In this document: in pieces, positions 7,201-64,000 of the stretch | Layout of the letters: every line of letters begins with the position of its first letter | Numbering within the stretch: the first letter of the stretch is position 1 | Assembly (NCBI GenBank): GCA_027482225.1 | Contig: JAIXWD010000014.1 | Span: forward strand, 74,719 to 138,718 | Reading direction: 5' to 3' | Source of the DNA: Bacteroidota bacterium | GTDB taxonomy: Bacteria; Bacteroidota; Bacteroidia; UKL13-3 | Length of the DNA stretch: 64,000 nucleotides | Translations under genes and position numbers: made by a program | The notes under the pieces: generated by a model | Databases searched by the model: none | Told to the model about the DNA's origin: nothing | The model's input: only the letters and a program-made list of their open reading frames with translations

Positions 7201-9794
7201 TTTACTAAACATGGGGTTGCGTTTGATGTCATCACTACTGAAACTGAGTCTCCGTTTAATGCGCCACTTAATACATAGGTGTTTGTTCCCGTTCCAACAT
7301 TTGCACCATTTCTTATCCATTGGTAAGTTGGCAATGAGCCACCATTGGTTGGAGTAGCAGTAAATGTTATTGGAGCTGAACCGCATATTGCAGTGGTATT
7401 TGATGAAATACTTACAGATGATGTTAAGTTCGAATTAACTGTTGCTGCTACTGATGTTCTTGTTGCTGTGGTACAACCATTCGCAGTTGCATCTACAAAG
7501 TAATTAGTATTTGCTGCTATACTTGGTGTGGTAAACGATGTACCTGTTGCTATTGATGTTCCGCCTGTTGCACCTGCATACCAGTTGATAGTACCTGCAC
7601 TTGCTGTTGCGCCTAATACCACTGTTCCTGTTCCACAACGACTTGCTGGTGTGCTTGCTGTAATGGTTGGAATTGCATTTACTGTTGCTGTTACTGATGT
7701 TCTTGTTGCTGTTGTGCAACCATTAGCTGTTGCATCAACATAATAAGTAGTTGTTGCTGTTATACTTGGTGTAGTAAAAAATGCTCCTGTTGAAACACTT
7801 GTTCCGCCTGTTAATGCAGTGTACCAGTTAATTGTACCTGCACTCGCTGTTGCGCCTAATACTGCTGTTCCTGTTCCGCAAATAGCAGCAGGTGTGTTTG
7901 CTGTAATAGTTGGGATTGCGTTTACAATAACAGCTACTGCTGTTGAAGTATCGCTACATCCACTTGCGTTTCTTACTAATACACGGTAACTACCTGAGGC
8001 TGTTGCGGTGTATGAAGCGTTGGTTGCTGTTGCAATTGGTGCATTGTTGTTTAACCATTGATAAGTTAATCCTGTTCCTGTATTTGCATTAATTATTACG
8101 CTTCCTCCTGAACAAAATGTAGTAGTAGTTGCTGCAGTAGCAGTTGCTGTTGGTAATGGAGCAATTGTAACTGTGATACTATCTGTTTTTTTACAACCTG
8201 TTGCATTGTCTGTTATTGTTACAATATATGTTCTAGTTGTATTAGTATTTACAATAGGACGAGCAATTGTTGTGCTACTTAAACCCACAGTTGGTAACCA
8301 TGAATAGCTGTAGCCAACTCCTAAATCTGTGCCAATTGTTACTGTTCTACCAATACAAATGGTTGTATCGTTACCTGCATTAACAACAGGAACGAAATTG
8401 TTTAGTGGAGCTACATCGTAATTGGCTGCATTTGGGTTAAAGTTACACCAGCATTTTGTCCAATCATCGGTACCCATAGCACCACGGAATGTAGTTGGTG
8501 TAAAGTAAGAATCAGCAATACGAGGAGCAGTAAATGAAGCACCAGATAAAGCAATTGAACCAGTAGCTGGTAAGAAATTTGGATTGGTGTAATTAAAAGC
8601 ATTGGTTAACACGCCATTGGCAGAAAATACAGAATCAGTACCTTGACTAAAAATGCTAGATCTAACAGTAGCAGCGTTAGCTGAAGAGTTGTTTATAGCT
8701 CTTAAGTTACCCGCTAAGATATTGTTGCGGAACATCATTGAGTCAGTGGCAAATTTTTGTCCAGTACGGGTACCATCTATAAATAATCCATCAGGGAAGC
8801 CCATAATAATGGAGTTAAATATAGAGGTTGATGAGTTCCTGCGGATACGTGCACCATTTTGGAATGAATTTGATGTACTTAGTGCAGTTCCATTAGCTAA
8901 TGGGCCAACTACAGTAACATTAGAAAATGTTGGGTCGGTAAATGGTTTTGCTTCTGTTCCTGATCCATCATTGTCTGATTCAAAACCATTTGTAGTTGGA
9001 CCAGTTCCAATATCATATAAGTTAGAATCGCGCAATACAATGGCATATTGTACTTTACCTTTGTAACCAAAATCTACGTCTAGGTCATCATCTACATTGC
9101 GGTTAGAAACTAACCATTTTGCATTTACACTACCACCAAACCACTCAAAACCATCATCATCTGCAAATGAAACCTGAACATTTTCAATGGTAGTAGATGA
9201 ACCTAAACCACCCATGGTTAATCCATTGATTTCGTTACCTGGTGTAATTACAGTTCCAGCAAATTCAATACGCACAAATTTTAAAATACCTGCATCGTGA
9301 GTACTATCAGTACCTCCGTATAAGCCATCACCAATTGCATTATCAATATCACCTTCAATTGCATTTTGAATACCTGCCTCATTAGCAGCAATTGCAGAAC
9401 CTGGACAAGTTGAGCAATCAGTAGGACGATTAAGTATAGCTTTACCTAAAATTACCACACCACCCCAATCACCTTTGGCACGTTGGCCGGCAAGTTTTTC
9501 TGAAGTAAATACTATTGGTTGGTTAGCTGTACCGTTGGCGTTAATTTTTCCATTTCGGGTAATTATCAATGTAGATTTGTTTCCGAATTTTCCTTTAACA
9601 ATGGTACCAGGTTGAATGGTAAGAGTTGCATTGTTTTTAACAAAAACATAACCATCTAATGTATAAATGGTATCGTTGAAGAATGTAACATTACTAGTAA
9701 TACTACCAGAAATGGTCCTTACCTTTTGCGCAAATGCTGCACTTAAAGTAAAAACCAACGTAATCAATAATAAGTTGAGTTTTTTCATATACAT
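4275..9794 (-). CDS. Giant T9SS-secreted adhesin-like protein (1839 aa). Two copies of a roughly 450-aa beta-helix-like domain, multiple Ig-like/PKD-like modules, C-terminal Por-secretion sorting domain
   Basis: Signal peptide MKKLNLLLITLVFTLSAAFAQ. C-terminal about 80 aa (LYPNPTSNITNVSF...GIYFANITTDKFSKTYRLVIIK) matches the T9SS CTD pattern. Internal near-identical repeats contain the ...CGTGTVVLGATASAGTINWY... motif. Confidence 0.85.
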   Translation of the reverse strand: MYMKKLNLLLITLVFTLSAAFAQKVRTISGSITSNVTFFNDTIYTLDGYVFVKNNATLTIQPGTIVKGKFGNKSTLIITRNGKINANGTANQPIVFTSEKLAGQRAKGDWGGVVILGKAILNRPTDCSTCPGSAIAANEAGIQNAIEGDIDNAIGDGLYGGTDSTHDAGILKFVRIEFAGTVITPGNEINGLTMGGLGSSTTIENVQVSFADDDGFEWFGGSVNAKWLVSNRNVDDDLDVDFGYKGKVQYAIVLRDSNLYDIGTGPTTNGFESDNDGSGTEAKPFTDPTFSNVTVVGPLANGTALSTSNSFQNGARIRRNSSTSIFNSIIMGFPDGLFIDGTRTGQKFATDSMMFRNNILAGNLRAINNSSANAATVRSSIFSQGTDSVFSANGVLTNAFNYTNPNFLPATGSIALSGASFTAPRIADSYFTPTTFRGAMGTDDWTKCWCNFNPNAANYDVAPLNNFVPVVNAGNDTTICIGRTVTIGTDLGVGYSYSWLPTVGLSSTTIARPIVNTNTTRTYIVTITDNATGCKKTDSITVTIAPLPTATATAATTTTFCSGGSVIINANTGTGLTYQWLNNNAPIATATNASYTATASGSYRVLVRNASGCSDTSTAVAVIVNAIPTITANTPAAICGTGTAVLGATASAGTINWYTALTGGTSVSTGAFFTTPSITATTTYYVDATANGCTTATRTSVTATVNAIPTITASTPASRCGTGTVVLGATASAGTINWYAGATGGTSIATGTSFTTPSIAANTNYFVDATANGCTTATRTSVAATVNSNLTSSVSISSNTTAICGSAPITFTATPTNGGSLPTYQWIRNGANVGTGTNTYVLSGALNGDSVSVVMTSNATPCLVNVTSNSNSITLTSSTVTPTVVISANPGTTICNGTSVTFTANATNGGSSPSYQWIRNGVNVGTNLPTFTSATLVTNDSISVVLTSNAACISTPTATSAASVMTVNAVPTITASTPASRCGSGTVVLGATASAGTINWYPTLTGGTSIATGVSYTTPSITATTTYFIDATANGCTTATRTSVAATVNVLPTVDFSSSLGSNGSVSFLNSTTNASTYSWSFGDGGTSTVANPTRQYTTNGTFQVKLVVTSANGCVAQAIKQIVVTGINSPVKALSGEITTNTTLFRDTIYTLNGYVFVKNNATLNIQSGTIIKGGADKASLIITRNGKIEANGTKNQPIIFTSAKAAGQRAKGDWGGLIILGKAKVNRPTDCSACPGSAVAANEPGIQNAIEGDIDNANGDGLYGGNDDTHNAGTLRYVRLEYGGTVITPGNEINGLTMGGLGSATVLENIQVSFADDDGFEWFGGTVNGRNLISFRNVDDDLDVDFGFSGKVQNAIVLRDSNLYDIGSGPTTNGFESDNDGTGTEAKPYTDPTFSNVTIVGPLAKGTALSTSNSFQNGARIRRNSSTSIFNSVIMGFPDGLFVDGTRTGQKFANDSMMFRNNVLAGNLRAINNSSANASSVRASIVANGCDTLTSANGVLGNPFNYTNPNFVPAPSSIALSGASFTANRLNDPFFKQTSYRGALGSNPDSNWTDCWSNYDPQSEGYTSAPYNKPGALAGFTATNGTGRTVNFTNTSSNAVAYLWNFGVTNSTTDTSVAANPSFVYPSNGTYNAILTAFSPCGKATFSVNVVVNDVSSNPVADFTYVQSATIGSREFTFNNTTDEKGFVTNYSWDFGVTSSSSDTSTVKNPVFNFPASGTYTVTLIATGTAGVDTISKVLNVIPVGIEENVSAIRNVTLYPNPTSNITNVSFDLTENTNVAIDLYDMSGRLVKAIPTQYLTSGNNSITIETSEVNAGIYFANITTDKFSKTYRLVIIK
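5067..6407 (-). repeat. Intragenic duplicated block, copy 2 of the beta-helix-like domain of the adhesin. Paralogous to 8385-9725 at a 3318-bp offset
   Basis: Antisense ORFs 5335-5859 and 8653-9066 translate to near-identical peptides. This shows about 85-90 percent nucleotide identity between the two blocks. Confidence 0.8.
7441..7926 (-). repeat. Two tandem near-identical 243-bp coding repeats (Ig-like modules). A third copy lies at about 6655-6897
   Basis: gttgctgctactgatgttcttgttgctgt... recurs at 6655, 7441 and 7684. Encoded peptide is AIPTITA.TPA..CGTGT.VLGATASAGTINWY. Confidence 0.8.
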
Positions 9795-9957
9795 AAATTT
9801 TCTTCAAATTTAAATGAAGTGTATTTAGTAATACTTACTTTAATATTAATTAAAGGTTAAGATTCAGCGTGCATGATTTTCAATTAGTGGTGAAATGAAA
9901 ATAAAATAACTAACGAAAATGAAATATGATCAATAAATAACAACGACCAATATAAAC

Positions 9958-10007: not shown

Positions 10008-12944
10008 TTAGAACTTATAACTGGCTCCAATGCTAACATTGTATCCATTAGTAAAGCGATAAACAGTGTTGTCAAAATTTGCTTTTACTGATGCTGGAAT
10101 ATTTGAGTCTATGCGTTGTTTAATACTGATATCATCAAATTTTCCGTTTTTGTTGTTGTCTTGATAAAATATTAAATCTTGAGCCAATAAATCACCAATA
10201 GTGAATTTGGCCTCTAAACCTTTGTAAATTTTACGTGCAATTGAAAGGTCAACTACAGTTCTTGGATTTTCCCATAAATCGGGAATTAAGCCATTTTTTT
10301 CTCTTACAAATGCAATCCGTCTTCCAACTCGATTAACAAATAAGGCAACCGACAAACCACTATTTGGATTATAGTATTGTATACTTGAATTGATAATGCT
10401 TGGGGATTGCCCCTGCAATGGACGGGTTCCTATACCTGCTGCTGCGGCAGATCCTTCAATTTTAACCTCTGAAAAAATACGTGCATAATTCATGGTGAAA
10501 ATAAAGTTTCTAAACAATAATTTGGTGCCCAATAATTTATCCAAAAAATCAAAGTTTTTTCTGATTTCAACCTCTAAGCCATAATTGGTTGCATTTGCAT
10601 CACTTGTGTAAGATAGCAAAGGATCACTTCCTGGCAATTCATTTAAACTTTCTATAGCATTGGTAAATTCTTTATAAAACAATGATCCAGAAATCAATTG
10701 CCCTTCTCCTGGGAAATACTCAAACCTAAAGTCATAATTATTAATTCTTGTGCGCGCCAAATTTGGTCTACCACTAACAGTAGTATTTAGGTTAAAATCA
10801 TAAAACGCAAAAGGAGCTAGTTCCCTAAATTCAGGTCTGGCCAAACTTCTGAAACCAGATAAACGTAAATTTACTTTTTCTGTTAACTCATAAGTGAGGT
10901 TTATCGAAGGAAGAAAATCGTTGAATGTGGTATCAATAGTTAATGGTTTTGGTGGTGATTGATTTAACTCAAACGTATTTAATATTTGTTGGTATGATTC
11001 AAAACGAGCACCATAAACTACCCTAAGCCTGCTGAACATACGTTGATCAAACATTACATAAGCTGCCTTTAGGTTAGACTCAGCTGAATACACATCTTGA
11101 GGTCGAAAATCTTCGTCAATATATAACGTATCATTTAACTTGTTTTTACTAAACAAGGTATCAATATTGCCTTGTATAAATTTTTGGTAATTATACGCAC
11201 TATTGGGATCGCTAACAAAACGTAAACGATAACCAAATGCACGTGCTTGAAAATCTCTTTTACGTTGTTGAATAAATCCACCAACCTTAACCACTGTTTT
11301 TATTTTTTTTCCTGTTAAAAAATTGACAGGTAATTGAAAATCTGCTCCGGCACTTTTGATGTTTTCATCTAAAGTAGAAAAGAACCTACCCGTTTGGGTA
11401 ATATCAATACTATTTGATATTTGAGCACCATAAGGAGTGTACTCACCAGTTGAAGGATCTATTAATGTTGAACGCGTAGAGAACCTTCTAAAATCTGGAA
11501 TATCTCTTTTAATTTTATTGTAGTTCAACACCCATTTTACTTTTAGCTTCGATATAGTTAAAAAGTGTTCACCTATTAATTGAGATGTAAGTAATTGGTT
11601 TTGTTGATAAGATAAATAATTATTCTTAACCAATGGAACTTGTTCATCTAGATAACTATCAATCCCGGTTCTTATTTGAGCAACATTTTCTGTATTAATG
11701 GTGTATGCATTTTTAAAACTAAACTTATGATTTCCGCCTAGCTTTAAACCAAAGTTAGCCATAGCGCCTGTTAGCAATTCATGTTTAGTTGTTTCATCAG
11801 TATAAGATGATAACAATTGGTTTTCATCCCCAATCATGGGTTTATTAAATCTATTTCTATCTACAGAGGTGTTTCGGTAACTATTATTGTATGAGCCAGA
11901 TAAGATATATCCAAACTCATTTTTCTTAGCAAACTTAAACATGTTACCACCAGCAATTTGTAATGAGTAATTTAATGGAAGTGATGATATGCGGTTAGTA
12001 CTCCAATTATCTTGAAATTTTTGACTTGCCGCTGCTTTTTCAGCTATAGTTTGGGTATGGTAAAATCCACGTCCTGCAATATCTGTTGGAACTTTGCGCG
12101 TTCCATCATCAAGACCAAGCAAATCAGTTTTGCCAGTTGTTGCAGATTGTATTCCACTTTTTCCAGTAGTTATACTATTAATACTGGTTCCAAAACCCAC
12201 TGAGACGAATTTTTTTTCTGGAATATCTTTGGTATTGATGGTGATTAAACCTCCGGTAAAATCACCAGGCAAATCTGGTGAACCTGATTTGGTAATCACC
12301 ATATTGTCAACCATGTTTGAAGGAATAATATCAAACGAAAATGCTTTACGATCAGATTCAGTACTAGGAAGGGGTGCGCCATTAATATATGCTGAATTAT
12401 AACGGTCATTCAAACCACGTATGATAGCAAATTTGTTATCTTGTATTGATGTTCCACTGATGCGTTTCATAGCATCACTAGTAGTGTTATCTGGTGATTT
12501 TTTGATTACATCAGCAGAAATACCATCAGAAACTGTAACTGAATTTTTTTGTTGAATTAATAATGCACTAGCACTTTCTTTTTTCAATTGACCTTGTACT
12601 ACAACTTCGCTCAACTCTTTAGAAGATGCTTCCATCGAAACATTGATAGTTGATGTTTCACTTCCTTTGACTTCAATGCCTACCAATTGTTTCTTAATAT
12701 AACCCACATAACTTACATTTAAGTTGTAAGTACCTGGTTTAAGATTTGCTATGGTAAATTTACCTTCTAAGTCGGTTGAAGCACCAAAGGAAGTTCCTTC
12801 AACACTAACTGAAACGCCTATTAGCTCTTCCCCATTTTTTTTATCGATTACTTTTCCAGTAATTTTTCCGGTTTGCGCAAATGCTGTTAGTCCGATGGTT
12901 AAGGCTAAAACAGTTGTAATTAATTTTTGTAAAGTGATTTTCAT
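10008..12944 (-). CDS. TonB-dependent outer-membrane receptor with N-terminal carboxypeptidase-regulatory-like domain
   Basis: Signal peptide. CarbopepD_reg-like N-domain (GKITGKVIDKKNGEELIGVSVSVEGT...). Plug region followed by a long beta-barrel. C-terminal aromatic residue (…GASYKF). 978 aa. Confidence 0.9.
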   Translation of the reverse strand: MKITLQKLITTVLALTIGLTAFAQTGKITGKVIDKKNGEELIGVSVSVEGTSFGASTDLEGKFTIANLKPGTYNLNVSYVGYIKKQLVGIEVKGSETSTINVSMEASSKELSEVVVQGQLKKESASALLIQQKNSVTVSDGISADVIKKSPDNTTSDAMKRISGTSIQDNKFAIIRGLNDRYNSAYINGAPLPSTESDRKAFSFDIIPSNMVDNMVITKSGSPDLPGDFTGGLITINTKDIPEKKFVSVGFGTSINSITTGKSGIQSATTGKTDLLGLDDGTRKVPTDIAGRGFYHTQTIAEKAAASQKFQDNWSTNRISSLPLNYSLQIAGGNMFKFAKKNEFGYILSGSYNNSYRNTSVDRNRFNKPMIGDENQLLSSYTDETTKHELLTGAMANFGLKLGGNHKFSFKNAYTINTENVAQIRTGIDSYLDEQVPLVKNNYLSYQQNQLLTSQLIGEHFLTISKLKVKWVLNYNKIKRDIPDFRRFSTRSTLIDPSTGEYTPYGAQISNSIDITQTGRFFSTLDENIKSAGADFQLPVNFLTGKKIKTVVKVGGFIQQRKRDFQARAFGYRLRFVSDPNSAYNYQKFIQGNIDTLFSKNKLNDTLYIDEDFRPQDVYSAESNLKAAYVMFDQRMFSRLRVVYGARFESYQQILNTFELNQSPPKPLTIDTTFNDFLPSINLTYELTEKVNLRLSGFRSLARPEFRELAPFAFYDFNLNTTVSGRPNLARTRINNYDFRFEYFPGEGQLISGSLFYKEFTNAIESLNELPGSDPLLSYTSDANATNYGLEVEIRKNFDFLDKLLGTKLLFRNFIFTMNYARIFSEVKIEGSAAAAGIGTRPLQGQSPSIINSSIQYYNPNSGLSVALFVNRVGRRIAFVREKNGLIPDLWENPRTVVDLSIARKIYKGLEAKFTIGDLLAQDLIFYQDNNKNGKFDDISIKQRIDSNIPASVKANFDNTVYRFTNGYNVSIGASYKF

Positions 12945-25321: not shown

Positions 25322-25328
25322 TATTTAG

Positions 25329-25402
25329 TGGGCCCACCTGGAATCGAACCAGGCACCTACTGATTATGAGTCAGTTGCTCTAACCGAATGAGCTATAGGC
25401 CC
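25329..25402 (-). tRNA. tRNA-Met (anticodon CAT). Could be an elongator or a lysidine-modified Ile2 type
   Basis: Manual fold. Acceptor GGGCCUA/UGGGCCC, D-arm AGCUCAUUCGGUUAGAGC, anticodon loop cuCAUaa, T-arm CCUGGUUCGAUUCCAGG, discriminator A. 74 nt, no encoded CCA. Confidence 0.9.
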
Positions 25403-29066: not shown

Positions 29067-31103
29067 ATGGCTGATATCGAACCAAACAACCAAAGTCCAC
29101 AGGAACCAACCCCAGGACCACGTAAACCTAAAGTACCTCAAATGCCCAAGTTTAATTTTTATTGGATATACGGGATTATTTTTGCCGTATTTCTTGGCAT
29201 ACAACTCATGCCACATGATGTTGCACTAAAAACCACATGGTTTCGTGTGCAAAGCGACATGATTATGGCAAATAGTGTAGAAAAAATAACCATTGTTAAT
29301 GAAAAACGTGCAGAGGTTACATTAAAAAAAGAAGCCCTTAATGGTGAAAAATTTAAAGACCTAAAAGATCGCAGCCTTTTTGGAGAAGATATTGGTCCGC
29401 ACTATTATTTTGAAATTGGTGATGTAACACAATTTCGTGCAGATTTAAAAGATGCGGAATTGGAATACGCTAAACGTAATCCTGGTCTTAACATACAAAT
29501 ACCAGTTGAATACACAACACAACACAATTATTTTGGCGATATATTAGGATGGATTTTACCATTTTTATTGTTGCTAGGGTTATGGATGTTTTTGATGCGC
29601 AAAATGGGCAGTGGTGGTGCAGGAGGAGGACAATTGTTTAACATTGGAAAATCTAAAGCAACACTTTTTGATAAAGAAAGCCTGGTAAAGATTACATTTA
29701 AAGATGTTGCGGGATTAGATGAAGCCAAAGTGGAAATTATGGAAATTGTTGATTTCCTTAAAAATCCCAAAAAATATACCAACCTAGGAGGTAAAATCCC
29801 TAAAGGCGCTTTATTGGTTGGCCCTCCGGGTACAGGTAAAACCTTATTGGCAAAAGCCGTTGCAGGCGAAGCCGGTGTGCCTTTTTTCTCATTATCAGGT
29901 TCTGATTTTGTGGAGATGTTTGTTGGTGTTGGAGCAAGTCGCGTACGCGATTTATTCCGCCAAGCAAAAGAAAAAGCACCTTGCATTATTTTCATTGATG
30001 AGATAGATGCCGTTGGCCGAGCACGTGGTCGTAATATGGTACAAGGTGGTAATGATGAACGTGAGAATACCTTAAACCAATTATTAACCGAAATGGATGG
30101 TTTCTCTACCGATTCAGGTGTGATTATTTTAGCCGCAACCAACCGTCCTGATATTTTAGATGCAGCATTGTTGCGTCCGGGTCGTTTTGATAGACAAATT
30201 TCAATTGACAAACCAGACTTAGCAGGTCGTGCGGAAATATTTAAAGTGCATTTAAAACCACTAAAATTAAATGCAGATGTAAGTGCAGATCGCTTATCAA
30301 CCCAAACTGCTGGTTTTGCGGGTGCAGAAATTGCCAACGTGTGTAACGAAGCTGCGCTAATAGCTGCACGTAAAAACAAAACTGAAATCGACATGCAAGA
30401 TTTTCAGGATGCAGTTGATCGTGTAATTGGGGGATTGGAAAAGAAGAATAAAATTATTTCGCCTGAAGAAAAAGAAATTATTGCTTACCACGAAAGTGGA
30501 CACGCCATTGTTGGTTGGTTCTTAAAGGATCTTGACCCGTTAGTAAAAGTTAGTATTGTACCTCGTGGTGTTGCAGCATTAGGTTATGCGCAATACTTGC
30601 CAAAAGACCAATACCTATATACCACCGAACAAATGGAAAACATGATGTGCATGACCTTAGGTGGACGTGTAGCAGAAGACATTGTATTTGGAAGAGTAAG
30701 TACGGGAGCACAAAATGATTTGGAACGTATTACACGTATGGCTTACGCTATGGTTACCATTTATGGTATGAATAGTAATGTAGGTAATGTAAGTTTCCAC
30801 GACCCAAATAACGAGTATGGATTTACAAAACCATACAGCGATAAAACAGCTGAGATGATTGATGTTGAAGTACGCAAACAAATTGATGCTTGCTATCAAA
30901 AAACCAAAGTATTACTGCTCGAAAAACGTGATAAATTAGAAGAGCTATCGCAAATTTTATTGAAACGTGAAATTTTATTCCAACACGATTTGGAAGAAAT
31001 TTTAGGCAAACGTCCGTTTGATGCAGTGAAGGAAGAAACTCCTTTAGAAATAACAGCAGCAGAAGAAACACACGAAAAACTAGATACAGAAACACACGAA
31101 TAG
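29067..31103 (+). CDS. ftsH: ATP-dependent zinc metalloprotease FtsH
   Basis: N-terminal TM pair. AAA module with Walker A GPPGTGKT and Walker B IIFIDEIDAVG. SRH region. Zn-binding HESGHAIV. Confidence 0.95.
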   Translation: MADIEPNNQSPQEPTPGPRKPKVPQMPKFNFYWIYGIIFAVFLGIQLMPHDVALKTTWFRVQSDMIMANSVEKITIVNEKRAEVTLKKEALNGEKFKDLKDRSLFGEDIGPHYYFEIGDVTQFRADLKDAELEYAKRNPGLNIQIPVEYTTQHNYFGDILGWILPFLLLLGLWMFLMRKMGSGGAGGGQLFNIGKSKATLFDKESLVKITFKDVAGLDEAKVEIMEIVDFLKNPKKYTNLGGKIPKGALLVGPPGTGKTLLAKAVAGEAGVPFFSLSGSDFVEMFVGVGASRVRDLFRQAKEKAPCIIFIDEIDAVGRARGRNMVQGGNDERENTLNQLLTEMDGFSTDSGVIILAATNRPDILDAALLRPGRFDRQISIDKPDLAGRAEIFKVHLKPLKLNADVSADRLSTQTAGFAGAEIANVCNEAALIAARKNKTEIDMQDFQDAVDRVIGGLEKKNKIISPEEKEIIAYHESGHAIVGWFLKDLDPLVKVSIVPRGVAALGYAQYLPKDQYLYTTEQMENMMCMTLGGRVAEDIVFGRVSTGAQNDLERITRMAYAMVTIYGMNSNVGNVSFHDPNNEYGFTKPYSDKTAEMIDVEVRKQIDACYQKTKVLLLEKRDKLEELSQILLKREILFQHDLEEILGKRPFDAVKEETPLEITAAEETHEKLDTETHE

Positions 31104-31124
31104 TACGTTTCATAACAAATATAA

Positions 31125-31160
31125 AATCCCTCCATAGCGAAAGCTGTTGGGGGATTTTTT
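31125..31160 (+). terminator. Terminator-like hairpin after ftsH
   Basis: aatccctcc...ggggggatt stem followed by ttttttgttt. Confidence 0.55.
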
Positions 31161-31540
31161 GTTTAGTGATTTACAATAAAAATAAAAATGTTGGAGCGAT
31201 AATAGTTTTGGGGCTTACCATAAAGCACACACAACACAAGCAAAACACAAAAATTATAGCCGAATATAGTTTCAAAATATTAGCCTTATTACAATATCAT
31301 ATAAATTTTAGTAAGTTTGAGTTTCGCTAACAAGCAAGTTAACATCATTTAGAAAGAAAGATATTTTTTCAAAATAGTTGAATGAGCCTTTCAATTATGT
31401 CAGAATAAAAATTACGCTACCATAATACATCATAACTAAAACTAAGCGATAAGTTTACACCTGAAAAATGGTTTCTTGCTTAAATTCTTTTAGCATGTAT
31501 GATATTAAAAAATCTTAAGAGTAAAAACCTCAAAAAACAA

Positions 31541-32821
31541 ATGAAAAAAAATATACTAATTGGAATAATGTTAATTATAGGACTCTATTCCTTAAACGTT
31601 AATGCGCAATCAAACAAGTGTGCAACTATGCAACATCTTCAAAAGAGTCTCACTAAAGACCCTACTTTAAAACTTAGAATGATTGAAAGCGAAAAAGCAA
31701 TAAACCAATGGATTTCAAATCATGCACGAAATAAGAAATCGAATCGTGGAGTAATAGTTATCCCTACAGTTGTTCATGTAATTTGGAAAGAGACAATTGA
31801 AAACGTGAATGATGACCAAATTTTATCTCAAATTAAAGTCTTGAATGAGGACTTTAGATTAATGAACGCTGATAGTTTAAACGACAAACATCCATTTTGG
31901 CCATTTACAATTGATGCGGATATTGAATTTTGTCTTGCAAAACAAGACCCTAATGGAAATCCTACAAATGGCATTACAAGAACGCAAACAACAGTAACCG
32001 CGTGGGATGATAACAATTCAGATAATATTAAATCCACTGCTAATGGTGGTCGAGATAATTGGGATCCAACAAAGTACCTAAATATTTATGTAGTAAACCT
32101 TGATGGAACGACTTTAGGTTTTGCTACATTTCCAGACGAACTCACAACTCAACCCAATTTAGATGGAGTAGTAATTCGATATGAAGCATTTGGTACAGAA
32201 GGAACAGCAGGATCAGGGAATTTTCCTTCAAATGATGGAGGTAGAACCGGAACCCATGAAGTAGGGCATTGGCTCAACCTCAGACATATTTGGGCCGACA
32301 CGATATGTGGTAATGACTTTGTAGCAGATACTGAACCAGCAGAAGAAGCAAATTATGAATGTCCTACATTTCCTCATAAACCAAACAATAAATGCGGTTC
32401 AGGCTCAAACGGTGAAATGTACATGAATTACATGGACTATGTTGATGATAAATGCATGCACATGTTTACAGCAGGACAATCAGACAGAATGCATGCGGCT
32501 TTAAATGGACCTCGTTCTTTACTAATTACTTCAAATGGTTGTCAATTACCAACTACTTTAAATGAATTAAATTTTTTAAACTCAGTTGCTATATATCCTA
32601 ATCCTAATAATGGACAATTTACTTTGTCAATAAATTTAAAAAATAATAGTGTTGTAAGTGCATCATTAATCAATTTAGTTGGAGTAACCGTTAAAGAATT
32701 TGGTATTATTTCAGGAGAGATATCAAATATTGACGTTACTAATTTTTCAACAGGGGCTTATTATTTAAAAGTAAGTAATTCAACAACATCAATAATAAAA
32801 AAAGTTTTTATTACTAAATAA
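31541..32821 (+). CDS. Secreted zinc metalloprotease, M43 (cytophagalysin/pappalysin-like) family with T9SS C-terminal sorting domain
   Basis: Signal peptide MKKNILIGIMLIIGLYSLNVNAQ. Extended zinc motif HEVGHWLNLRH. C-terminal IYPNPNNGQFTLS…GAYYLKVSNSTTSIIKKVFITK. Confidence 0.8.
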   Translation: MKKNILIGIMLIIGLYSLNVNAQSNKCATMQHLQKSLTKDPTLKLRMIESEKAINQWISNHARNKKSNRGVIVIPTVVHVIWKETIENVNDDQILSQIKVLNEDFRLMNADSLNDKHPFWPFTIDADIEFCLAKQDPNGNPTNGITRTQTTVTAWDDNNSDNIKSTANGGRDNWDPTKYLNIYVVNLDGTTLGFATFPDELTTQPNLDGVVIRYEAFGTEGTAGSGNFPSNDGGRTGTHEVGHWLNLRHIWADTICGNDFVADTEPAEEANYECPTFPHKPNNKCGSGSNGEMYMNYMDYVDDKCMHMFTAGQSDRMHAALNGPRSLLITSNGCQLPTTLNELNFLNSVAIYPNPNNGQFTLSINLKNNSVVSASLINLVGVTVKEFGIISGEISNIDVTNFSTGAYYLKVSNSTTSIIKKVFITK

Positions 32822-32871
32822 CAATAGATAGAAGCGGGGCTTGGCTCCCGCTTCTATCCATAACAGAAATT

Positions 32872-33267
32872 ATGAATAAATTATTTATAGGAGTTTTATT
32901 GAGTTTATTCTTTTCTTGTAAAGGAACAAAGACCATTACCCATGATGAAAATAATCAAAAAAAAGAGCATTCATCGGATAATATTTATCGCTTTAATATT
33001 TCATTTATCAGTATTGGTTCCGGGATAGATGGTAAAGCAAGACAAGATTTTTTAAACTTTATTAGCGAATATGAGACCAAAAATAATATTCAACTTGAAA
33101 TGGAAACAGTTAAATGGGGTCGAGAAGGAGAAACAGACTATTGTACAAAATTGTCTCAATTAAATTCAGACGAGCAAGTTAAATTTATTTCATCTATCAA
33201 AGAATTAACAAAAACATCTAAACTTGTTCGCTATTCCGAAAACACAACATGTAAAAAAAGAAACTAA
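32872..33267 (+). CDS. Hypothetical lipoprotein (131 aa)
   Basis: Lipobox LFFSCKG. No recognisable domain. Confidence 0.5.
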   Translation: MNKLFIGVLLSLFFSCKGTKTITHDENNQKKEHSSDNIYRFNISFISIGSGIDGKARQDFLNFISEYETKNNIQLEMETVKWGREGETDYCTKLSQLNSDEQVKFISSIKELTKTSKLVRYSENTTCKKRN

Positions 33268-45921: not shown

Positions 45922-46824
45922 ATGGTAAACTGGAATCCATACATTAAAGGTTTTAAAGCATATTTGCAGTTGGAAAAATCGCTATCAAAAAATAGCATTG
46001 AGGCTTACCAACGCGACATGGAAAAGCTGATTCAGTTTTTTAATGCCAAGGGTTTGGTCCCACAACCAGCAGATGTTAACTTAGCAACCCTTCGCGAGTT
46101 CTTAAGATGGATAACCGAATTGGGCATGAGCACAACCAGTCAAGCACGAATTTTAAGCGGAATAAAAGCCTTTTACAATTACCTTTTAATGGAGGATTTA
46201 ATTACTAAAAATCCTGCTGAGTTACTGGAATCACCAAAGCTAAAAAGAAAATTACCAGAGGTACTTGATGTACATGAAATTGATTTGATGGTTGAACAAA
46301 TTGACCACAGCAAACCTGAAGGGATGCGCAACAAAGCCATTATAGAAACCATGTTTAGTTGTGGTTTACGTGTAAGCGAATTGGTAGGGTTAAAGTTTGC
46401 AGATATTTCATATTCAGATGAATTTGTGCGTGTAATTGGCAAAGGTAATAAGGAAAGATTGATACCTATTGGAAGCATTGCACTTAAAGCCATTAAACTA
46501 TATAAAGAAACAGTACGCTCGCACATTACTCCCCAAACCGGACATACAGATACTGTGTTTTTAAACGGCCGTGGAAAAGGATTGAGTAGGATAATGATAT
46601 TTTATATCATAAAAGATTTAGCCAAGCGTGCCGGAATTCATAAAAACATTTCGCCACATACCATGCGGCATTCATTTGCTACTTGTTTGGTAGAGGCTGG
46701 GGCCGATTTACGTGCGGTACAACAAATGCTTGGTCATGAAAGTATTACCACCACCGAAATTTATACCCACATCGACAGGGCATACTTACATGATGTAATA
46801 ACGCAGTTTCATCCAAGAAGTTAG
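45922..46824 (+). CDS. xerD: Tyrosine site-specific recombinase XerD/XerC family
   Basis: Catalytic region HTMRHSFATCLVEAGADLRAVQQMLGHESITTTEIYTH with R…HxxR…Y. About 300 aa. Flanked by housekeeping genes and no partner phage genes. Confidence 0.8.
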   Translation: MVNWNPYIKGFKAYLQLEKSLSKNSIEAYQRDMEKLIQFFNAKGLVPQPADVNLATLREFLRWITELGMSTTSQARILSGIKAFYNYLLMEDLITKNPAELLESPKLKRKLPEVLDVHEIDLMVEQIDHSKPEGMRNKAIIETMFSCGLRVSELVGLKFADISYSDEFVRVIGKGNKERLIPIGSIALKAIKLYKETVRSHITPQTGHTDTVFLNGRGKGLSRIMIFYIIKDLAKRAGIHKNISPHTMRHSFATCLVEAGADLRAVQQMLGHESITTTEIYTHIDRAYLHDVITQFHPRS

Positions 46825-61976: not shown

Positions 61977-62576
61977 CGTAATAGTTATGGGTCGACAGGT
62001 TGATCAGTCAAAGCTTATTCGAATTGCTATGAGAACTGGGGTTGTTTCGAAACTTAGTTCAGCGGAGCTAAAATAGGATTTACTTCAACATTTCACTTTT
62101 TCATATGATATATCCAACGGATATCCTTTGCAGCAATCATTTTATTTATCCCTAATTTCATTTTGTTAATATATTGCCTGTTTGTAGTACCTAAAAAATT
62201 GGTTATACATAATTTGTAAGCGGATTACTTTTTCAAATCCAAGTTTAGCCTATTTCATATTGTTACTTAATATCTTCCCATTACTTCATTTACATTCCAT
62301 TAATATTACTTTTACTACACTTTATATAATTTTTATGTTTTAATAAAAACAATTGGCTTATTTCGTCATGTATTTAAACCCTAACCTCATATGTATACCA
62401 TTAGCCCAAATTCCATTCATTTATTATTAAATAGTACGAAAGTATTAACCGTTTATAAGCGAATAAACATTCGCACTATTGGTTGTATTGCACTATTAGG
62501 CGAAATAGAAGGGGTTTGAGTTTCGTATATATTTAAGTTAGTGGTAATGCTAAAAAAGACAAACAAATAGAAACCT

Positions 62577-63263
62577 ATGATAAGTTTACAGACAGGTAAG
62601 CCGTTAGATATTTATCTTCCAAATATTTATAGATATATGGACAAACAGTTTATTGACCTATTTTTTGAAAAAGGGATTTTAAGACTAAGTTCATTTAAAA
62701 AATTCAAAGAGTACCTAGACGAAATTCGAGGGGACAAAAATGAAGGCAATGGAAGTGTGACAGGAACCACCGACAAATCAGGTTTTCAGTTTCACGTTAT
62801 GTCAAATGTAGGAAGTGACGCATATATTCTTTGCGGAAGTATTATTGACTCTGATTCTATAAGGAAAACCTTCGAAACGGACACTTGCTTTAGAATTGTA
62901 AAACCACTTGACTTTTCAGTTGCAGTTTCTAATGCAATTTTAGGCTTCAAGCAATCTTTTCAAGGGTTTTGTAATTATAGAGAACATAGAATGATTAAAA
63001 AATTGATTCCGGGTATGGACATAAATGACTTCACGGGGCCAGAAGGAACAATTATTATTGGCGGACAAAAAGGGATTGAAAGAACAGACCAGATTTTAGG
63101 TAATGGTATTGACCTAATGTTTTTAAAAGAGAAAAAGTATCAAGACCAATGTGAATATCGTTTTGTTTGGACAATTAACTCTCAATTTTATTCAATGTCT
63201 GACTTTATTGATATTGAATGTAAAGAAGCAGTACAATTTTGTGAGAGAGTAGAACAAGATTAA
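62577..63263 (+). CDS. Hypothetical protein (228 aa), first gene of AT-rich cassette
   Basis: ORF only. No nucleotide-binding or catalytic motif recognised. Confidence 0.4.
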   Translation: MISLQTGKPLDIYLPNIYRYMDKQFIDLFFEKGILRLSSFKKFKEYLDEIRGDKNEGNGSVTGTTDKSGFQFHVMSNVGSDAYILCGSIIDSDSIRKTFETDTCFRIVKPLDFSVAVSNAILGFKQSFQGFCNYREHRMIKKLIPGMDINDFTGPEGTIIIGGQKGIERTDQILGNGIDLMFLKEKKYQDQCEYRFVWTINSQFYSMSDFIDIECKEAVQFCERVEQD

Positions 63264-63264
63264 T

Positions 63265-63444
63265 ATGGCTAAAAAAGAAGCACATACCACTAACAGCACC
63301 TACACGCAAGGCGGGGTTTCATCTCCGCTTGACAGTTTTGAGGTAATAGAAAGTTCAGTTATCCGAACAAACTTTAGTGCTAAAAAGCCCGCCCTGCGTG
63401 TAGCTGCAAACCGTTATGCCTTATGCGTATACAGAGACAAATAA
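63265..63444 (+). CDS. Small ORF (59 aa) between cassette genes
   Basis: Manual translation MAKKEAHTTNSTYTQGGVSSPLDSFEVIESSVIRTNFSAKKPALRVAANRYALCVYRDK. Starts 1 nt after the previous stop. Below the ORF-track cutoff. Confidence 0.3.
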   Translation: MAKKEAHTTNSTYTQGGVSSPLDSFEVIESSVIRTNFSAKKPALRVAANRYALCVYRDK

Positions 63445-63455
63445 AACTATAAACT

Positions 63456-63752
63456 TTGACAGCAGTAGCAGGAATTTTAAATAAACAAGGCGTTGCAATT
63501 GCAGCTGATAGCGCAGTAACTGTTAATGGACCAAATCACAGAAAGGTATACAATTCAGCAAATAAAATTTTCACCCTTTCTAAATATCATCCTGTTGGCA
63601 TAGCAATATACAATAGTGCCCAAATTATGGGAATACCTTGGGAAATTTTAATAAAAGAATACCGAAAAAAATTAGGAGATAGAAGCTTTGAGAAATTATC
63701 GGATTACAAAACAGACTTTTTTTCTTGGCTTGAGTTCAATAAATATTTATAA
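63456..63752 (+). CDS. HslV/proteasome-beta-like Ntn-hydrolase, N-terminal half (98 aa)
   Basis: Thr directly after the initiator Met. TAVAGILNKQGVAIAADSAVT fits the proteasome-beta/HslV N-terminal signature (TTIVxVxxxGxVVIAGDxQAT). Downstream K and hydrophobic periodicity align to HslV residues 1-95. Confidence 0.45.
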   Translation: MTAVAGILNKQGVAIAADSAVTVNGPNHRKVYNSANKIFTLSKYHPVGIAIYNSAQIMGIPWEILIKEYRKKLGDRSFEKLSDYKTDFFSWLEFNKYL

Positions 63753-63764
63753 ATTTGAAACATA

Positions 63765-63986
63765 ATGAATTCATTTAAATTTAATTTCCCAACTTTTGAT
63801 ACAGAGGAATTTAATGAAATTATTCTTGAAGTTCCTTTAATCGCAATTGATGAAAATCAAAATACAAAGGTTTCAGATGACAGACTAATGTCCGCTTCAG
63901 TGAACGAAATGGCGACACTAATTGTTTCTGAAATGATGGCGACAGTTAAACAAGATCTTTCATTTATCAATCGCACGAAGGCATAA
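63765..63986 (+). CDS. Possible C-terminal half of the same HslV-like protein. Same reading frame as 63456-63752, separated by TAA and TGA
   Basis: In frame with the upstream fragment. The combined length of 175 aa equals HslV length. Weak LIAID / RLMSAS correspondence to HslV LLAVAD / LIAIGSGG. Confidence 0.35.
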   Translation: MNSFKFNFPTFDTEEFNEIILEVPLIAIDENQNTKVSDDRLMSASVNEMATLIVSEMMATVKQDLSFINRTKA

Positions 63987-64000
63987 CAAGACCTACCCAA

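What the first reader, a model, noticed from the sequence alone, without database searches (positions are those of the whole stretch)
61977..64000. AT-rich 600-bp gap after gldD, followed by a compact cassette of unknown small genes including a split HslV/proteasome-like hydrolase
Directly after the gldE-gldD pair the sequence changes character. Positions 61977-62576 hold no ORF. They are very AT-rich, with homopolymer runs, a perfect hairpin gcgaat-aaac-attcgc at about 62458, and a direct repeat gcactatt x2.

Four co-oriented, tightly packed ORFs follow: 62577-63263, 63265-63444, 63456-63752 and 63765-63986. The gaps between them are 1, 11 and 12 nt. None has an assignable function.

The third ORF begins M-T-AVAGILNKQGVAIAADSAVT. 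This has the N-terminal Thr nucleophile and the G-x-x-x-A-D pattern of proteasome-beta/HslV Ntn hydrolases. The fourth ORF lies in the same frame. The two are separated only by TAA-ATT-TGA, and together they are 175 aa, which is HslV length. So this is either a nonsense-disrupted HslV-like gene or a genuinely two-piece protein.

Bacteroidetes normally lack HslVU. An HslV-like remnant next to a 59-aa peptide gene and a 228-aa unknown in AT-rich DNA looks like an acquired, uncharacterised module. It could be a defence or peptide-processing system. The window ends at 64000, so partner genes, such as an ATPase, may lie just beyond.
Basis: partly seen in the sequence, partly recalled or inferred. 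Interest (0 to 1): 0.7.

Follow-up and report, generated by a model that had tools for sequence, protein, structure and literature searches.

The report
Integron-like gene cassettes after gldD
The "compact cassette" after gldD is two mobile, integron-type gene cassettes bounded by a conserved hairpin recombination site; the supposed split HslV is the deletion remnant of a 418-residue proteasome-like gene plus its separate small partner gene.

Summary
The four ORFs exist as described, but three of the four readings change.

- **ORF4** is not its C-terminal half. It is the separate small partner gene that follows this family in 65 of 69 intact loci.
- **"ORF2"** is a spurious frame across a 126-nt imperfect hairpin (TAAC...GTTA).

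That hairpin belongs to a large repeat family: 239 copies in the contigs I fetched. They lie in same-strand arrays of up to 7, each just after an ORF.

In 93 cassettes, the 6 nt after GTTA at the cassette start are the reverse complement of the 6 nt before TAAC at its end (mean 4.6 of 6, against 2.3 for shuffled pairings). Both window cassettes score 6/6. This is the signature of integron cassettes.

The window holds no integrase, only XerD. In related contigs a Xer/IntI-like recombinase sits at array heads and lacks the IntI-specific segment.

ORF1 is a conserved unknown with a weak ADP-ribosyltransferase-like fold.

The parts
61977..62536 (.). AT-rich spacer between gldD and the first cassette. 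It is host-side DNA with no recognisable element.
   Evidence: GC is 0.296. No ORF exceeds 42 aa. There is no tRNA, no copy of the hairpin repeat, no recombinase remnant and no similarity to the attI-side regions of L183/L187. There is no TAnnTTTG motif. Homology with other contigs carrying ORF1 starts only at 62536/62537.
62537..62546 (+). Left junction of cassette A: GTTA followed by GTGGTA, the R'-type half-site that starts the cassette.
   Evidence: The same (A/C)GTTAG... start appears in three different contexts: the window, L086 and L087. GTGGTA is the exact reverse complement of TACCAC at 63285-63290, just before the TAAC of the site that ends this cassette.
62577..63263 (+). ORF1, 228 aa. 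It is the cargo gene of cassette A, a conserved protein of unknown function.
63265..63444 (+). "ORF2" (59 aa): a spurious reading frame across the recombination site, not a gene.
   Evidence: It overlaps the hairpin. The homologous copy in L001 carries an in-frame stop. Its translated matches coincide with the hairpin repeat in every locus listed. A similar spurious ORF lies over an element in L187 at 12580-12885.
63285..63416 (+). attC-like recombination site 1. It comprises the cassette-specific extension TACCAC, then TAAC (63291-63294), an imperfect stem (arms 63296-63319 and 63384-63407), a 64-nt loop, and GTTA (63413-63416).
   Evidence: The inverted repeat has 24-nt arms, 88% complementary. 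The fold z-score is -3.1. nhmmer E is 6e-34 against the repeat family profile. Across 99 copies, 91% of cells are paired against 28-43% when the partners are slid, and 232 cells show changes on both sides. Homology with L086 ends right after ...AAACC(G/A)TTA.
63456..63752 (+). ORF3: the N-terminal 98-codon remnant of a 418-aa proteasome-like (PMI-type) Ntn-hydrolase gene. It is a pseudogene.
63735..63748 (+). Deletion junction. A 14-nt stretch aligns with both codons ~95-98 and the last codons of the intact gene.
   Evidence: By blastn, window 63457-63748 matches L006 9512-9803, and window 63735-63987 matches L006 10751-11002. The same junction is present in the independent contig L001.
63765..63986 (+). 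ORF4, 73 aa: the intact small partner gene of the proteasome-like gene. It is not the C-terminal half of that gene.
   Evidence: It is 56% identical over 73 aa to the separate 74-aa gene L006 10777-11001. In 65 of 69 intact loci a 47-78-aa ORF starts close to the stop of the big gene (mostly 2-25 nt after it, in a few loci overlapping it), and many share a C-terminal motif.
63978..64000 (+). Start of attC-like site 2, cut by the window end: AAGGCA, then TAAC (63984-63987, overlapping the ORF4 stop codon), then AAGACCTACCCAA.
   Evidence: AAGGCA is the exact reverse complement of TGCCTT (63417-63422), which starts cassette B. The sequence resembles the 5' part of the family consensus TAACAGCACCTACCCAA. 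It is too short for nhmmer to detect.

Best explanation
Window 62538-64000 is a short array of integron-type gene cassettes inserted downstream of gldD in a Bacteroidota chromosome. [quoted passage not shown]

**The two cassettes**
- Cassette A (62538-63413) carries ORF1 and ends in a 126-nt imperfect hairpin site (TAAC...GTTA).
- Cassette B (63414 to beyond 64000) originally carried a two-gene operon: a ~418-aa proteasome-like Thr-hydrolase with two helical insertions, and a ~70-aa partner. A second copy of the site begins at 63984.
- In this lineage a ~950-bp deletion between short similar sequences removed codons ~97-415 of the hydrolase. That left ORF3 as a dead stub and ORF4 intact.

**What is shown**
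- The repeat family and its conserved stem.
- The same-strand arrays with ORFs just upstream of each site.
- The cassette-specific complementarity between each cassette's first bases and the bases before its terminal site.
- The deletion.

**What is inferred (mechanism)**
- A tyrosine recombinase acts on the folded single strand of the site and exchanges strands within the conserved GTTA/TAAC core. Cassettes can therefore be excised as circles and reinserted.
- The array here arose by insertion at a secondary GTT site.
- The cognate enzyme is the Xer/IntI-like recombinase seen at array heads in related contigs.

By itself the 98-residue stub is not expected to fold or act as a hydrolase.
For: **Repeat family**
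My rough chance expectation is a few hits at most.
- nhmmer finds 239 copies in the loci held. 64 loci hold 2-7 hits; 55 hold at least two strong copies, and none of those mixes strands.

**Cassette signature**
- In 93 cassettes, 68 have at least 5 of 6 complementary bases between the start extension and the end extension. The mean is 4.62, against 2.28 for shuffled pairings (maximum 2.62 in 1000 shuffles) and 2.34 for the two ends of the same site in place.
- Both window cassettes score 6/6.

**Cassette anatomy**
- Median cassette length is 1477 bp.
- The largest ORF is co-oriented with the site in 101 of 105 cassettes.
- The median distance from ORF stop to site is 11 nt.

**Stem conservation**
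- 91.2% of cells are paired, against 28-43% in the slid controls.
- 232 cells change on both sides, against 8-22 in the slid controls.

**Mosaic boundaries fall at the sites**.

**Recombinase at array heads**
- L183 and L187 are divergent from the array and L191 is adjacent; L199 and L132 sit at contig ends.
- The best NCBIfam matches are integron integrase or XerA, all below the curated cut-offs.

**The proteasome-like gene pair is itself flanked by the sites** in Belliella calami (6/6) and in a Ferruginibacter MAG.

**Deletion and partner gene:**

**Fold of the family:**
Against: - No recombinase is present in the window, only XerD above its curated cut-off.
- Only one complete site and 17 nt of a second are visible, so the size of the array is unknown.
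- The recombinases next to related arrays lack the roughly 45-50 residues that define integron integrases. None passes a curated cut-off, and only five of about 120 contigs show one.
- The site differs from textbook attC: the spacer is asymmetric (1 nt against 5 nt) and the loop sequence is long and conserved.
- I could not run the IntegronFinder attC model.
- The covariation comes from a handful of sub-types, so there are few independent events.
- No promoter was identified in the gap.
Confidence: 0.85

Rival explanations
1. ORF3 and ORF4 are one HslV-length Ntn hydrolase split by two nonsense codons, or a genuine two-piece enzyme. It sits in an acquired defence or peptide-processing module together with a 59-aa peptide gene.
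For: ORF3 and ORF4 share a frame and sum to about 175 aa. ORF3 has Thr, Asp and Lys and a weak Pfam Proteasome match at E 0.17.
Against: - The family is 415-437 aa.
- ORF4 aligns with a separate downstream gene, not with the enzyme's C-terminus.
- The TAA of the TAA-ATT-TGA string is the native stop codon and the rest is the native spacer, both conserved in L006.
- The 59-aa ORF is a frame across a repeated DNA site.
- The C-terminal half of the fold, including the GGPVDVA strand, is missing.
Confidence: 0.02
2. These are classical integron cassettes moved by a bona fide IntI encoded elsewhere in such genomes. The Xer-like recombinases seen beside related arrays are incidental neighbours.
For: All cassette-level features match integrons. 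Integrons are reported in Bacteroidota. Only five contigs show the Xer-like enzyme.
Against: No protein with the IntI-specific segment was found next to any of about 120 array contigs. The Xer-like enzyme sits exactly at the 5' head of the array in L183, L187 and L191, and it recurs at 46-54% identity in L199, L132 and L177.
Confidence: 0.2
3. The hairpin is only a repeated extragenic palindrome or terminator, like REP elements. The ORFs are ordinary accessory genes with no cassette mobility.
For: The hairpin lies just after ORF1, where a terminator would be. The cassettes have the GC content of the host.
Against: REP or terminator repeats do not predict that each inter-repeat segment starts with the reverse complement of the bases before its own terminal repeat. 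They also do not predict mosaic homology ending exactly at GTTA, or recombinase genes at array heads.
Confidence: 0.04
4. The block is a decayed prophage fragment. Both ORF1 and the proteasome-like gene belong to phage protein families.
For: The family matches phrog_5990 and ORF1 matches phrog_13198. The copy in Flavobacterium sp. Sd200 (L002) lies in a prophage-like region with ClpP and a holin.
Against: There are no other phage genes, no integrase and no tRNA target here. Each gene unit is bounded separately by the recombination site and occurs in unrelated contexts.
Confidence: 0.04

Closest known systems
[quoted passage not shown]
   Same: - Imperfect palindromic site with ...AAC at the 5' end and GTT... 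at the 3' end.
- The site lies a few nt after a promoterless-looking ORF.
- Same-strand arrays with cassettes of about 0.6-2.5 kb.
- Highly similar sites within a lineage.
- Each cassette carries the two complementary halves of the outer box, which implies crossover inside GTT.
- A tyrosine recombinase sits at the array head in some contigs.
- Contigs often break at the repeats.
   Different: - The recombinases seen beside arrays lack the IntI-specific insertion, carry an ~87-aa N-terminal extension, and fail the curated integron-integrase cut-offs.
- The spacer between the outer and inner stems is asymmetric.
- The 64-nt loop is conserved in sequence.
- The host phylum is one where integrons are reported as very rare (PMC9024848).
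- The window itself has no integrase.
PMI-4, 'proteasome homolog with multiple insertions' (Fuchs, Alva and Lupas 2021, PMC8665760)
   Same: - Proteasome-beta fold with Thr1/Asp17/Lys33.
- Long insertions after H1/H2 and between H3/H4.
- A large family spread over many bacterial phyla, including Bacteroidetes, and over phages.
- No known function.
   Different: Identity with PMI-4 could not be checked against its representative HDY66466.1. The conserved small partner gene and the carriage in cassettes are not taken from that paper. The window copy is a 98-codon remnant.
HslV (ClpQ)
   Different: HslV is ~175 aa with no insertions and works with the AAA+ ATPase HslU. This family is 415-437 aa, has about 250 residues of helical insertions that probably preclude HslV-like rings, and its constant neighbour is a 47-78-aa protein.
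DarT and other ADP-ribosyltransferase-fold toxins (for ORF1)
   Same: The ORF1 model's best structural neighbours are all ART folds: Scabin, the Rhs toxin TreX, DarT and Tpt1. The family has well-conserved Arg19, Ser88 and Glu193 on strands.

Membership tests
Integron gene cassette / attC site | Imperfect inverted repeat with outer boxes R'' (...AAC) and R' (GTT...) and inner paired boxes. | tested here: met
   TAAC at 63291-63294 and GTTA at 63413-63416; 24-nt arms 88% complementary. Across 99 copies, 91% of cells are paired and the TAAC/GTTA pairs are kept in 91-96 of 99.
Integron gene cassette / attC site | Crossover inside the GTT core, so that each cassette begins with the complement of the bases preceding its own attC. 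| tested here: met
   93 cassettes: mean 4.62 of 6 complementary, against 2.28 for shuffled pairings and 2.34 for same-site controls. Window cassettes A and B and the Belliella calami cassette all score 6/6.
Integron gene cassette / attC site | Same-strand arrays of sites separated by short, mostly single-gene, co-oriented cassettes. | tested here: met
   64 loci hold 2-7 hits; 55 have at least two strong copies and none of those mixes strands. The ORF is co-oriented in 101 of 105 cassettes. Median length is 1477 bp. The window itself shows one full site and the first 17 nt of a second.
Integron gene cassette / attC site | Adjacent integron integrase (IntI) carrying the IntI-specific additional domain. 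| tested here: not met
   In the window the only tyrosine recombinase is XerD, at 45922-46824. In related arrays the recombinases score 157-191 bits on TIGR02249 (cut-off 265), in two stretches that skip profile positions ~183-245. The L183 enzyme shows a gap of about 45 aa when aligned with IntI1, whose sequence I recalled from memory.
Integron gene cassette / attC site | Detection by the IntegronFinder attC covariance model; extrahelical bases and an unpaired central spacer of canonical geometry. | not testable with these tools
   Rfam holds no attC model. Conserved mismatches (columns 35/164, 42/157, 45/154) and a 1-nt against 5-nt spacer are visible, but their role cannot be judged here.
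Proteasome-type (T1) Ntn hydrolase; PMI-4 subfamily | Proteasome-beta alpha-beta-beta-alpha sandwich fold. | tested here: met
Proteasome-type (T1) Ntn hydrolase; PMI-4 subfamily | Catalytic Thr1, Asp17 and Lys33. | tested here: met
   D18 and K37 are invariant and T2 nearly invariant in 50-55 sequences. All three are present in window ORF3.
Proteasome-type (T1) Ntn hydrolase; PMI-4 subfamily | Complete second half of the fold: strands S6-S11, helices H3/H4, and the Ser/Asp-x-x-Ser-Gly-Gly region. | tested here: not met
   This half is deleted in the window copy. It is present in intact relatives as ...EESVGGPVDVAVI..., which aligns with proteasome beta residues 166-185.
Proteasome-type (T1) Ntn hydrolase; PMI-4 subfamily | Long insertions after H1/H2 and between H3/H4, and a distribution across many phyla and phages (PMC8665760). 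| tested here: met
   The model has helices 104-206 and 282-350 at those two positions. The family occurs in Bacteroidota, Bacillota, Acidobacteriota and other phyla and matches phrog_5990. A direct match to the PMI-4 representative HDY66466.1 is not testable here.
HslV | Compact ~175-aa subunit paired with HslU, and a Pfam Proteasome match above threshold. | tested here: not met
   The length is 415-437 aa. The downstream neighbour is a 47-78-aa gene in 65 of 69 loci. PF00227 gives E 0.17-0.23, below the cut-off.

The most novel reading that the evidence does not exclude
Bacteroidota carry a widespread integron-like cassette system of their own. It has a conserved 126-nt folded recombination site, and its recombinase is a Xer-like tyrosine recombinase with an N-terminal extension and without the IntI-specific domain that is thought necessary for recognising attC hairpins. 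This would be either an independent invention or a deeply divergent branch of integrons. The system circulates uncharacterised cargo such as the PMI-type proteasome homolog with its small partner, and a possible ADP-ribosyltransferase-fold protein.
Probability: 0.4. Interest if true: 0.75.

Novelty: new variant of a known kind. Interest (0 to 1): 0.55.

Why it matters
Integron biology rests almost entirely on proteobacterial systems. IntI's extra domain is taken as the hallmark that allows recombination of folded single-stranded attC sites. Surveys report almost no integrons in Bacteroidetes.

A large Bacteroidota repeat family that behaves like attC, yet sits next to recombinases lacking that domain, would matter in three ways:
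- It would extend cassette-based gene capture to a major phylum.
- It would give a natural test of which protein features are really needed for hairpin recombination.
- It would explain many assembly breaks in environmental Bacteroidota genomes.

There is also an annotation lesson. Frames across these sites are called as small proteins, and a deletion stub next to an intact partner gene looks like a split enzyme.

The cargo is of interest as well. The proteasome homolog family has over 7000 sequence clusters and no known function. It has a conserved two-gene architecture and travels in cassettes and prophages.

Tried and rejected
- **Extending the window.** An exact-DNA scan of species genomes found nothing. 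Exact-protein look-ups for ORF1, ORF4 and GldD found nothing. The ORF3 look-up returned only a 705-bp contig. The sequence beyond 64000 was therefore not seen.
- **Family searches on the four ORFs.** Pfam, NCBIfam and PADLOC gave nothing significant.
- **Recurrent truncation.** An early idea was that the family is broken again and again at about residue 95, by recoding or a hot spot. I dropped it once 69 of 78 complete genomic copies proved intact. The short database hits were an effect of using a short query.
- **Rfam.** It gave only a chance MIR168 match at E 0.34. That match was useful only because it exposed the hairpin.
- **The hairpin as a leader of the proteasome-like gene.** Rejected, because upstream regions of other family members lack it.
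- **RNAalifold.** On the MAFFT alignment it found only 3 pairs. I therefore wrote the stem by hand and tested it with slid and shuffled controls.
- **The AT-rich gap.** Searches for integrase remnants, attI similarity and a Bacteroidetes -7 motif all came back negative. The sigma-70 and terminator scans were at chance level.
- **Literature.** Searches found no description of this repeat or recombinase, and no function for PMI-4.
Full report
**1. What is in the sequence**

The gaps are 1, 11 and 12 nt. ORF3 and ORF4 are in the same frame. GldE and GldD precede them.

Between 61977 and 62576 no ORF exceeds 42 aa. The stretch up to the first cassette (61977-62537) has GC 0.296 against 0.354 for the window. 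That is low, in the lowest 2.7% of 560-bp windows, but not unique. The ORF block itself has the GC content of the host. Pfam, NCBIfam and PADLOC give nothing significant for the four ORFs. The only hint is Pfam Proteasome at E 0.17 for ORF3 residues 2-44.

**2. ORF3 is the stub of a much larger proteasome-like gene**

- Homologs of ORF3 are very numerous. They share a strongly conserved first ~95 residues (MTAVVGILNKQAVAIAADSAVT...) and then continue.
- In 80 loci from species-representative genomes the gene is 395-445 aa in 69 of the 78 copies that are not cut by a contig end (mostly 415-437 aa). Most of these genomes are Bacteroidota. Bacillota, Terriglobus, Cloacimonadales and others also appear.
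- The closest intact copy, L006, is 418 aa and 88% identical over the first 98 residues.
- At the DNA level, window 63457-63748 aligns with L006 9512-9803 (80%). Window 63735-63987 aligns with L006 10751-11002 (71%). That second segment covers the last 17 nt of the L006 gene, its spacer, and the whole of the next gene.
- The window copy has therefore lost about 950 bp (codons ~97-415). The junction lies in a 14-nt stretch (63735-63748) that resembles both flanks.
- A 297-aa fragment from the same 90% cluster (P0301) continues ...FFSWLEVNKYFIETSNNDY... and represents the undeleted allele.
- The same junction is present in an independent metagenome contig, L001, so it is not an assembly artefact. 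In L001 the start codon is ATG.

**3. ORF4 is a separate, conserved partner gene**

ORF4 is 56% identical over its full length to the 74-aa gene that follows the L006 enzyme. In 65 of 69 intact loci an ORF of 47-78 aa starts close to the stop of the large gene, mostly 2-25 nt after it and in a few loci overlapping it. Many of these share a C-terminal helix motif of the type EISEIVSxKLIxxVKxQFE, which ORF4 also fits. No AAA+ ATPase accompanies the family.

**4. What the large gene is**

- More than 7200 sequence clusters match the intact protein. All are annotated as hypothetical and none has a Pfam domain.
- The family corresponds to phrog_5990, of unknown function (E 1e-103 to 1e-130). It has no PADLOC match.
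- D18 and K37 are invariant and T2 nearly so. These correspond to Thr1, Asp17 and Lys33 of proteasome beta subunits. The C-terminal ...EESVGGPVDVAVI... aligns with residues 166-185 of the Thermoplasma beta subunit.
- Two helical insertions (about residues 104-206 and 282-350) sit after H1/H2 and between H3/H4.
- This matches the description of PMI-3/PMI-4 in Fuchs, Alva and Lupas 2021. PMI-4 is the abundant type found in Bacteroidetes and phages.
- I could not compare with the PMI-4 representative, so I rate that assignment as likely, not shown. I found no functional study.
The HslV-length, two-piece reading was not.

**5. "ORF2" is a recombination site**

- A chance Rfam match exposed a long hairpin inside ORF2. 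The arms are 63296-63319 and 63384-63407, 88% complementary, with a fold z-score of -3.1.
- Comparison of contigs showed mosaic boundaries at this element.
  - Window 62536-63416 is 95.7% identical to L086. There it follows a SprB gene, and similarity ends right after ...AAACC(G/A)TTA.
  - L087-L090 share only ORF1 plus 40 nt upstream. In those loci a diverged copy of the hairpin precedes the unit.
  - L001 has a diverged hairpin after an unrelated gene, followed by the identical hydrolase stub.
My rough expectation for a pattern of about 40 bits is a few chance hits at most.
- The copies start at (Y)TAACAGCAC and end at AAAMCGTTA. Their flanks are unrelated, and many lie at contig ends.
- A profile search found 239 copies in the loci held. 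64 loci hold 2-7 hits; 55 have at least two strong copies, and none of those mixes strands.
- The hand-written stem is paired in 91.2% of cells, against 28-43% when the partners are slid. It has 232 double-change cells against 8-22. Examples are CTACCC/GGGTAG, ATTTGC/GCAAAT, ATTGGC/GCCAAT and TACACGC/GCGTGTA. These come from a handful of sub-types, so independent events are few.
- The ORF2 frame carries a stop in L001. Its translated matches simply track the repeat.

**6. The decisive test**

In integrons the strand exchange occurs inside the GTT core. Each cassette therefore starts with the bases that complement those just before its own terminal attC.

- I measured this on 93 cassettes bounded by two sites. 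68 have at least 5 of 6 complementary bases (mean 4.62).
- Shuffled pairings give a mean of 2.28, with a maximum of 2.62 in 1000 shuffles. The two ends of the same site in place give 2.34.
- Window cassette A starts GTTA-GTGGTA (62537-62546), and its site is preceded by TACCAC (63285-63290): 6/6.
- Window cassette B starts GTTA-TGCCTT (63413-63422), and AAGGCA-TAAC lies at 63978-63987, overlapping the ORF4 stop codon: 6/6.
- The last 17 nt of the window resemble the 5' part of the site consensus.
- Cassettes have a median length of 1477 bp. The main ORF is co-oriented with the site in 101 of 105, and the site begins a median of 11 nt after the stop codon.
- The intact hydrolase-plus-partner pair is flanked by two sites in the isolate Belliella calami DSM 107340 (6/6) and in a Ferruginibacter MAG. 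L006 has a partial site.

**7. The recombinase**

- The window's only tyrosine recombinase is XerD: 45922-46824, TIGR02225 at 341 bits, above its cut-off.
- The AT-rich gap holds no recombinase remnant, no site copy and no similarity to the attI-side regions of L183/L187.
- In related contigs a 358-359-aa recombinase sits at the 5' head of the array.
  - It is divergent from the array in L183 and L187, and adjacent in L191.
  - It is co-directional with the array and cut by contig ends in L199 and L132.
- Its best NCBIfam matches are integron integrase (TIGR02249, 157-191 bits, cut-off 265) and XerA/integron integrase (NF040815, 178-202 bits, cut-off 220).
- The TIGR02249 match comes in two stretches that skip profile positions ~183-245. 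An alignment of the L183 enzyme to IntI1 shows a gap of about 45 residues where the IntI-specific segment lies. The IntI1 sequence was recalled from memory, so this alignment is only a supporting lead.
- A defining feature of integron integrases is therefore not met. I say the system works like an integron, and I do not file it as a canonical one.

**8. Cassette A cargo**

- ORF1 has about 60 homologs of constant length, all hypothetical, and matches phrog_13198.
- It occurs after SprB, after a DndB-like gene in a block that also contains Mrr and HNH genes, and here after gldD.
- Arg19 (conserved in at least 90% of sequences) and the invariant Ser88 and Glu193 lie on strands and could form an R-S-E triad. 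This is my inference and only a lead.

**9. Comparison with what is known, and novelty**

- Integrons and CALINs are well known. Surveys find them almost entirely in Proteobacteria. In Bacteroidetes they report only lone integrases (In0) and one complete integron, in Salinibacter ruber. The phylum is listed among integron hosts.
- I found no description of this site family or this recombinase type in the library.
- The window feature itself is modest: two cassettes, one of them with a dead gene.
- What is notable is the family it reveals. My rating is a new variant of a known kind, with interest 0.55.

**10. Limits**

- The sequence downstream of 64000 was not seen.
- The IntegronFinder models could not be run.
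- The link between the recombinase and the arrays rests on five contigs.
- The functions of the proteasome homolog, its partner and ORF1 remain untested.

Noticed in passing
L003/L004/L005 10001-11274; L002 10001-11297; L008, L019, L029, L037, L039, L061, L062, L067, L077: About 9 of 78 complete genomic copies of the proteasome-like gene are disrupted, each at a different position. One has a frameshift near residue 88 that is identical in three independent assemblies. Another, in Flavobacterium sp. Sd200, has a frameshift near residue 272. Frequent independent inactivation could mean the gene is costly.
   Followed up: partly
L002 11837-20846: The copy in Flavobacterium sp. Sd200 lies in a prophage-like region with a ClpP-type protease, DUF6712 and a holin. 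This agrees with the family's match to phrog_5990.
   Followed up: no
L006 7077-9352: In L006 the intact gene pair is preceded by a 527-aa AAA_15/AAA_21 ATPase, a 168-aa unknown and a 59-aa membrane protein. This looks like a defence-island setting.
   Followed up: no
L126 1818-5245: Two pairs of site copies, at 1818/2760 and 4165/5107, have identical scores and flanks. This points to a tandem duplication of a two-cassette block of about 2.35 kb.
   Followed up: no
L145 1801-1967: One copy of the site carries a 24-nt GC-rich insertion in its loop. The loop therefore tolerates insertions while the stem is kept.
   Followed up: no
window 63456 versus L001 401: The stub's start codon is TTG in the window and ATG in L001. 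The preceding cassette also differs between the two. The dead cassette has therefore been placed behind different neighbours, or its neighbour was exchanged, after the deletion.
   Followed up: partly
L183 812-1891; L187 9196-10272: The array-head recombinases share an ~87-residue N-terminal extension (for example ...KVIWCKFPKNDLVLSELKRQYAFCRWSSTNKCWYITDN...) that is absent from XerC/D. Its role is unknown.
   Followed up: no
window 45922-46824 and 25328-25402: A bona fide XerD passes its curated cut-off, and there is a tRNA-Met gene. Neither is associated with the cassettes.
   Followed up: yes
window about 9500-9800, 31000-31400 and 32350-33000: Three other patches have GC as low as or lower than the gap after gldD, with a minimum of 0.264. 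I did not examine them.
   Followed up: no
L087 1-9813: Upstream of the ORF1 unit in L087-L089 is a run of co-oriented genes (Mrr_cat, HNH, a DndB-like gene and unknowns). Only one site copy was detected there, so either other sites have diverged beyond the profile or this is an ordinary island.
   Followed up: partly
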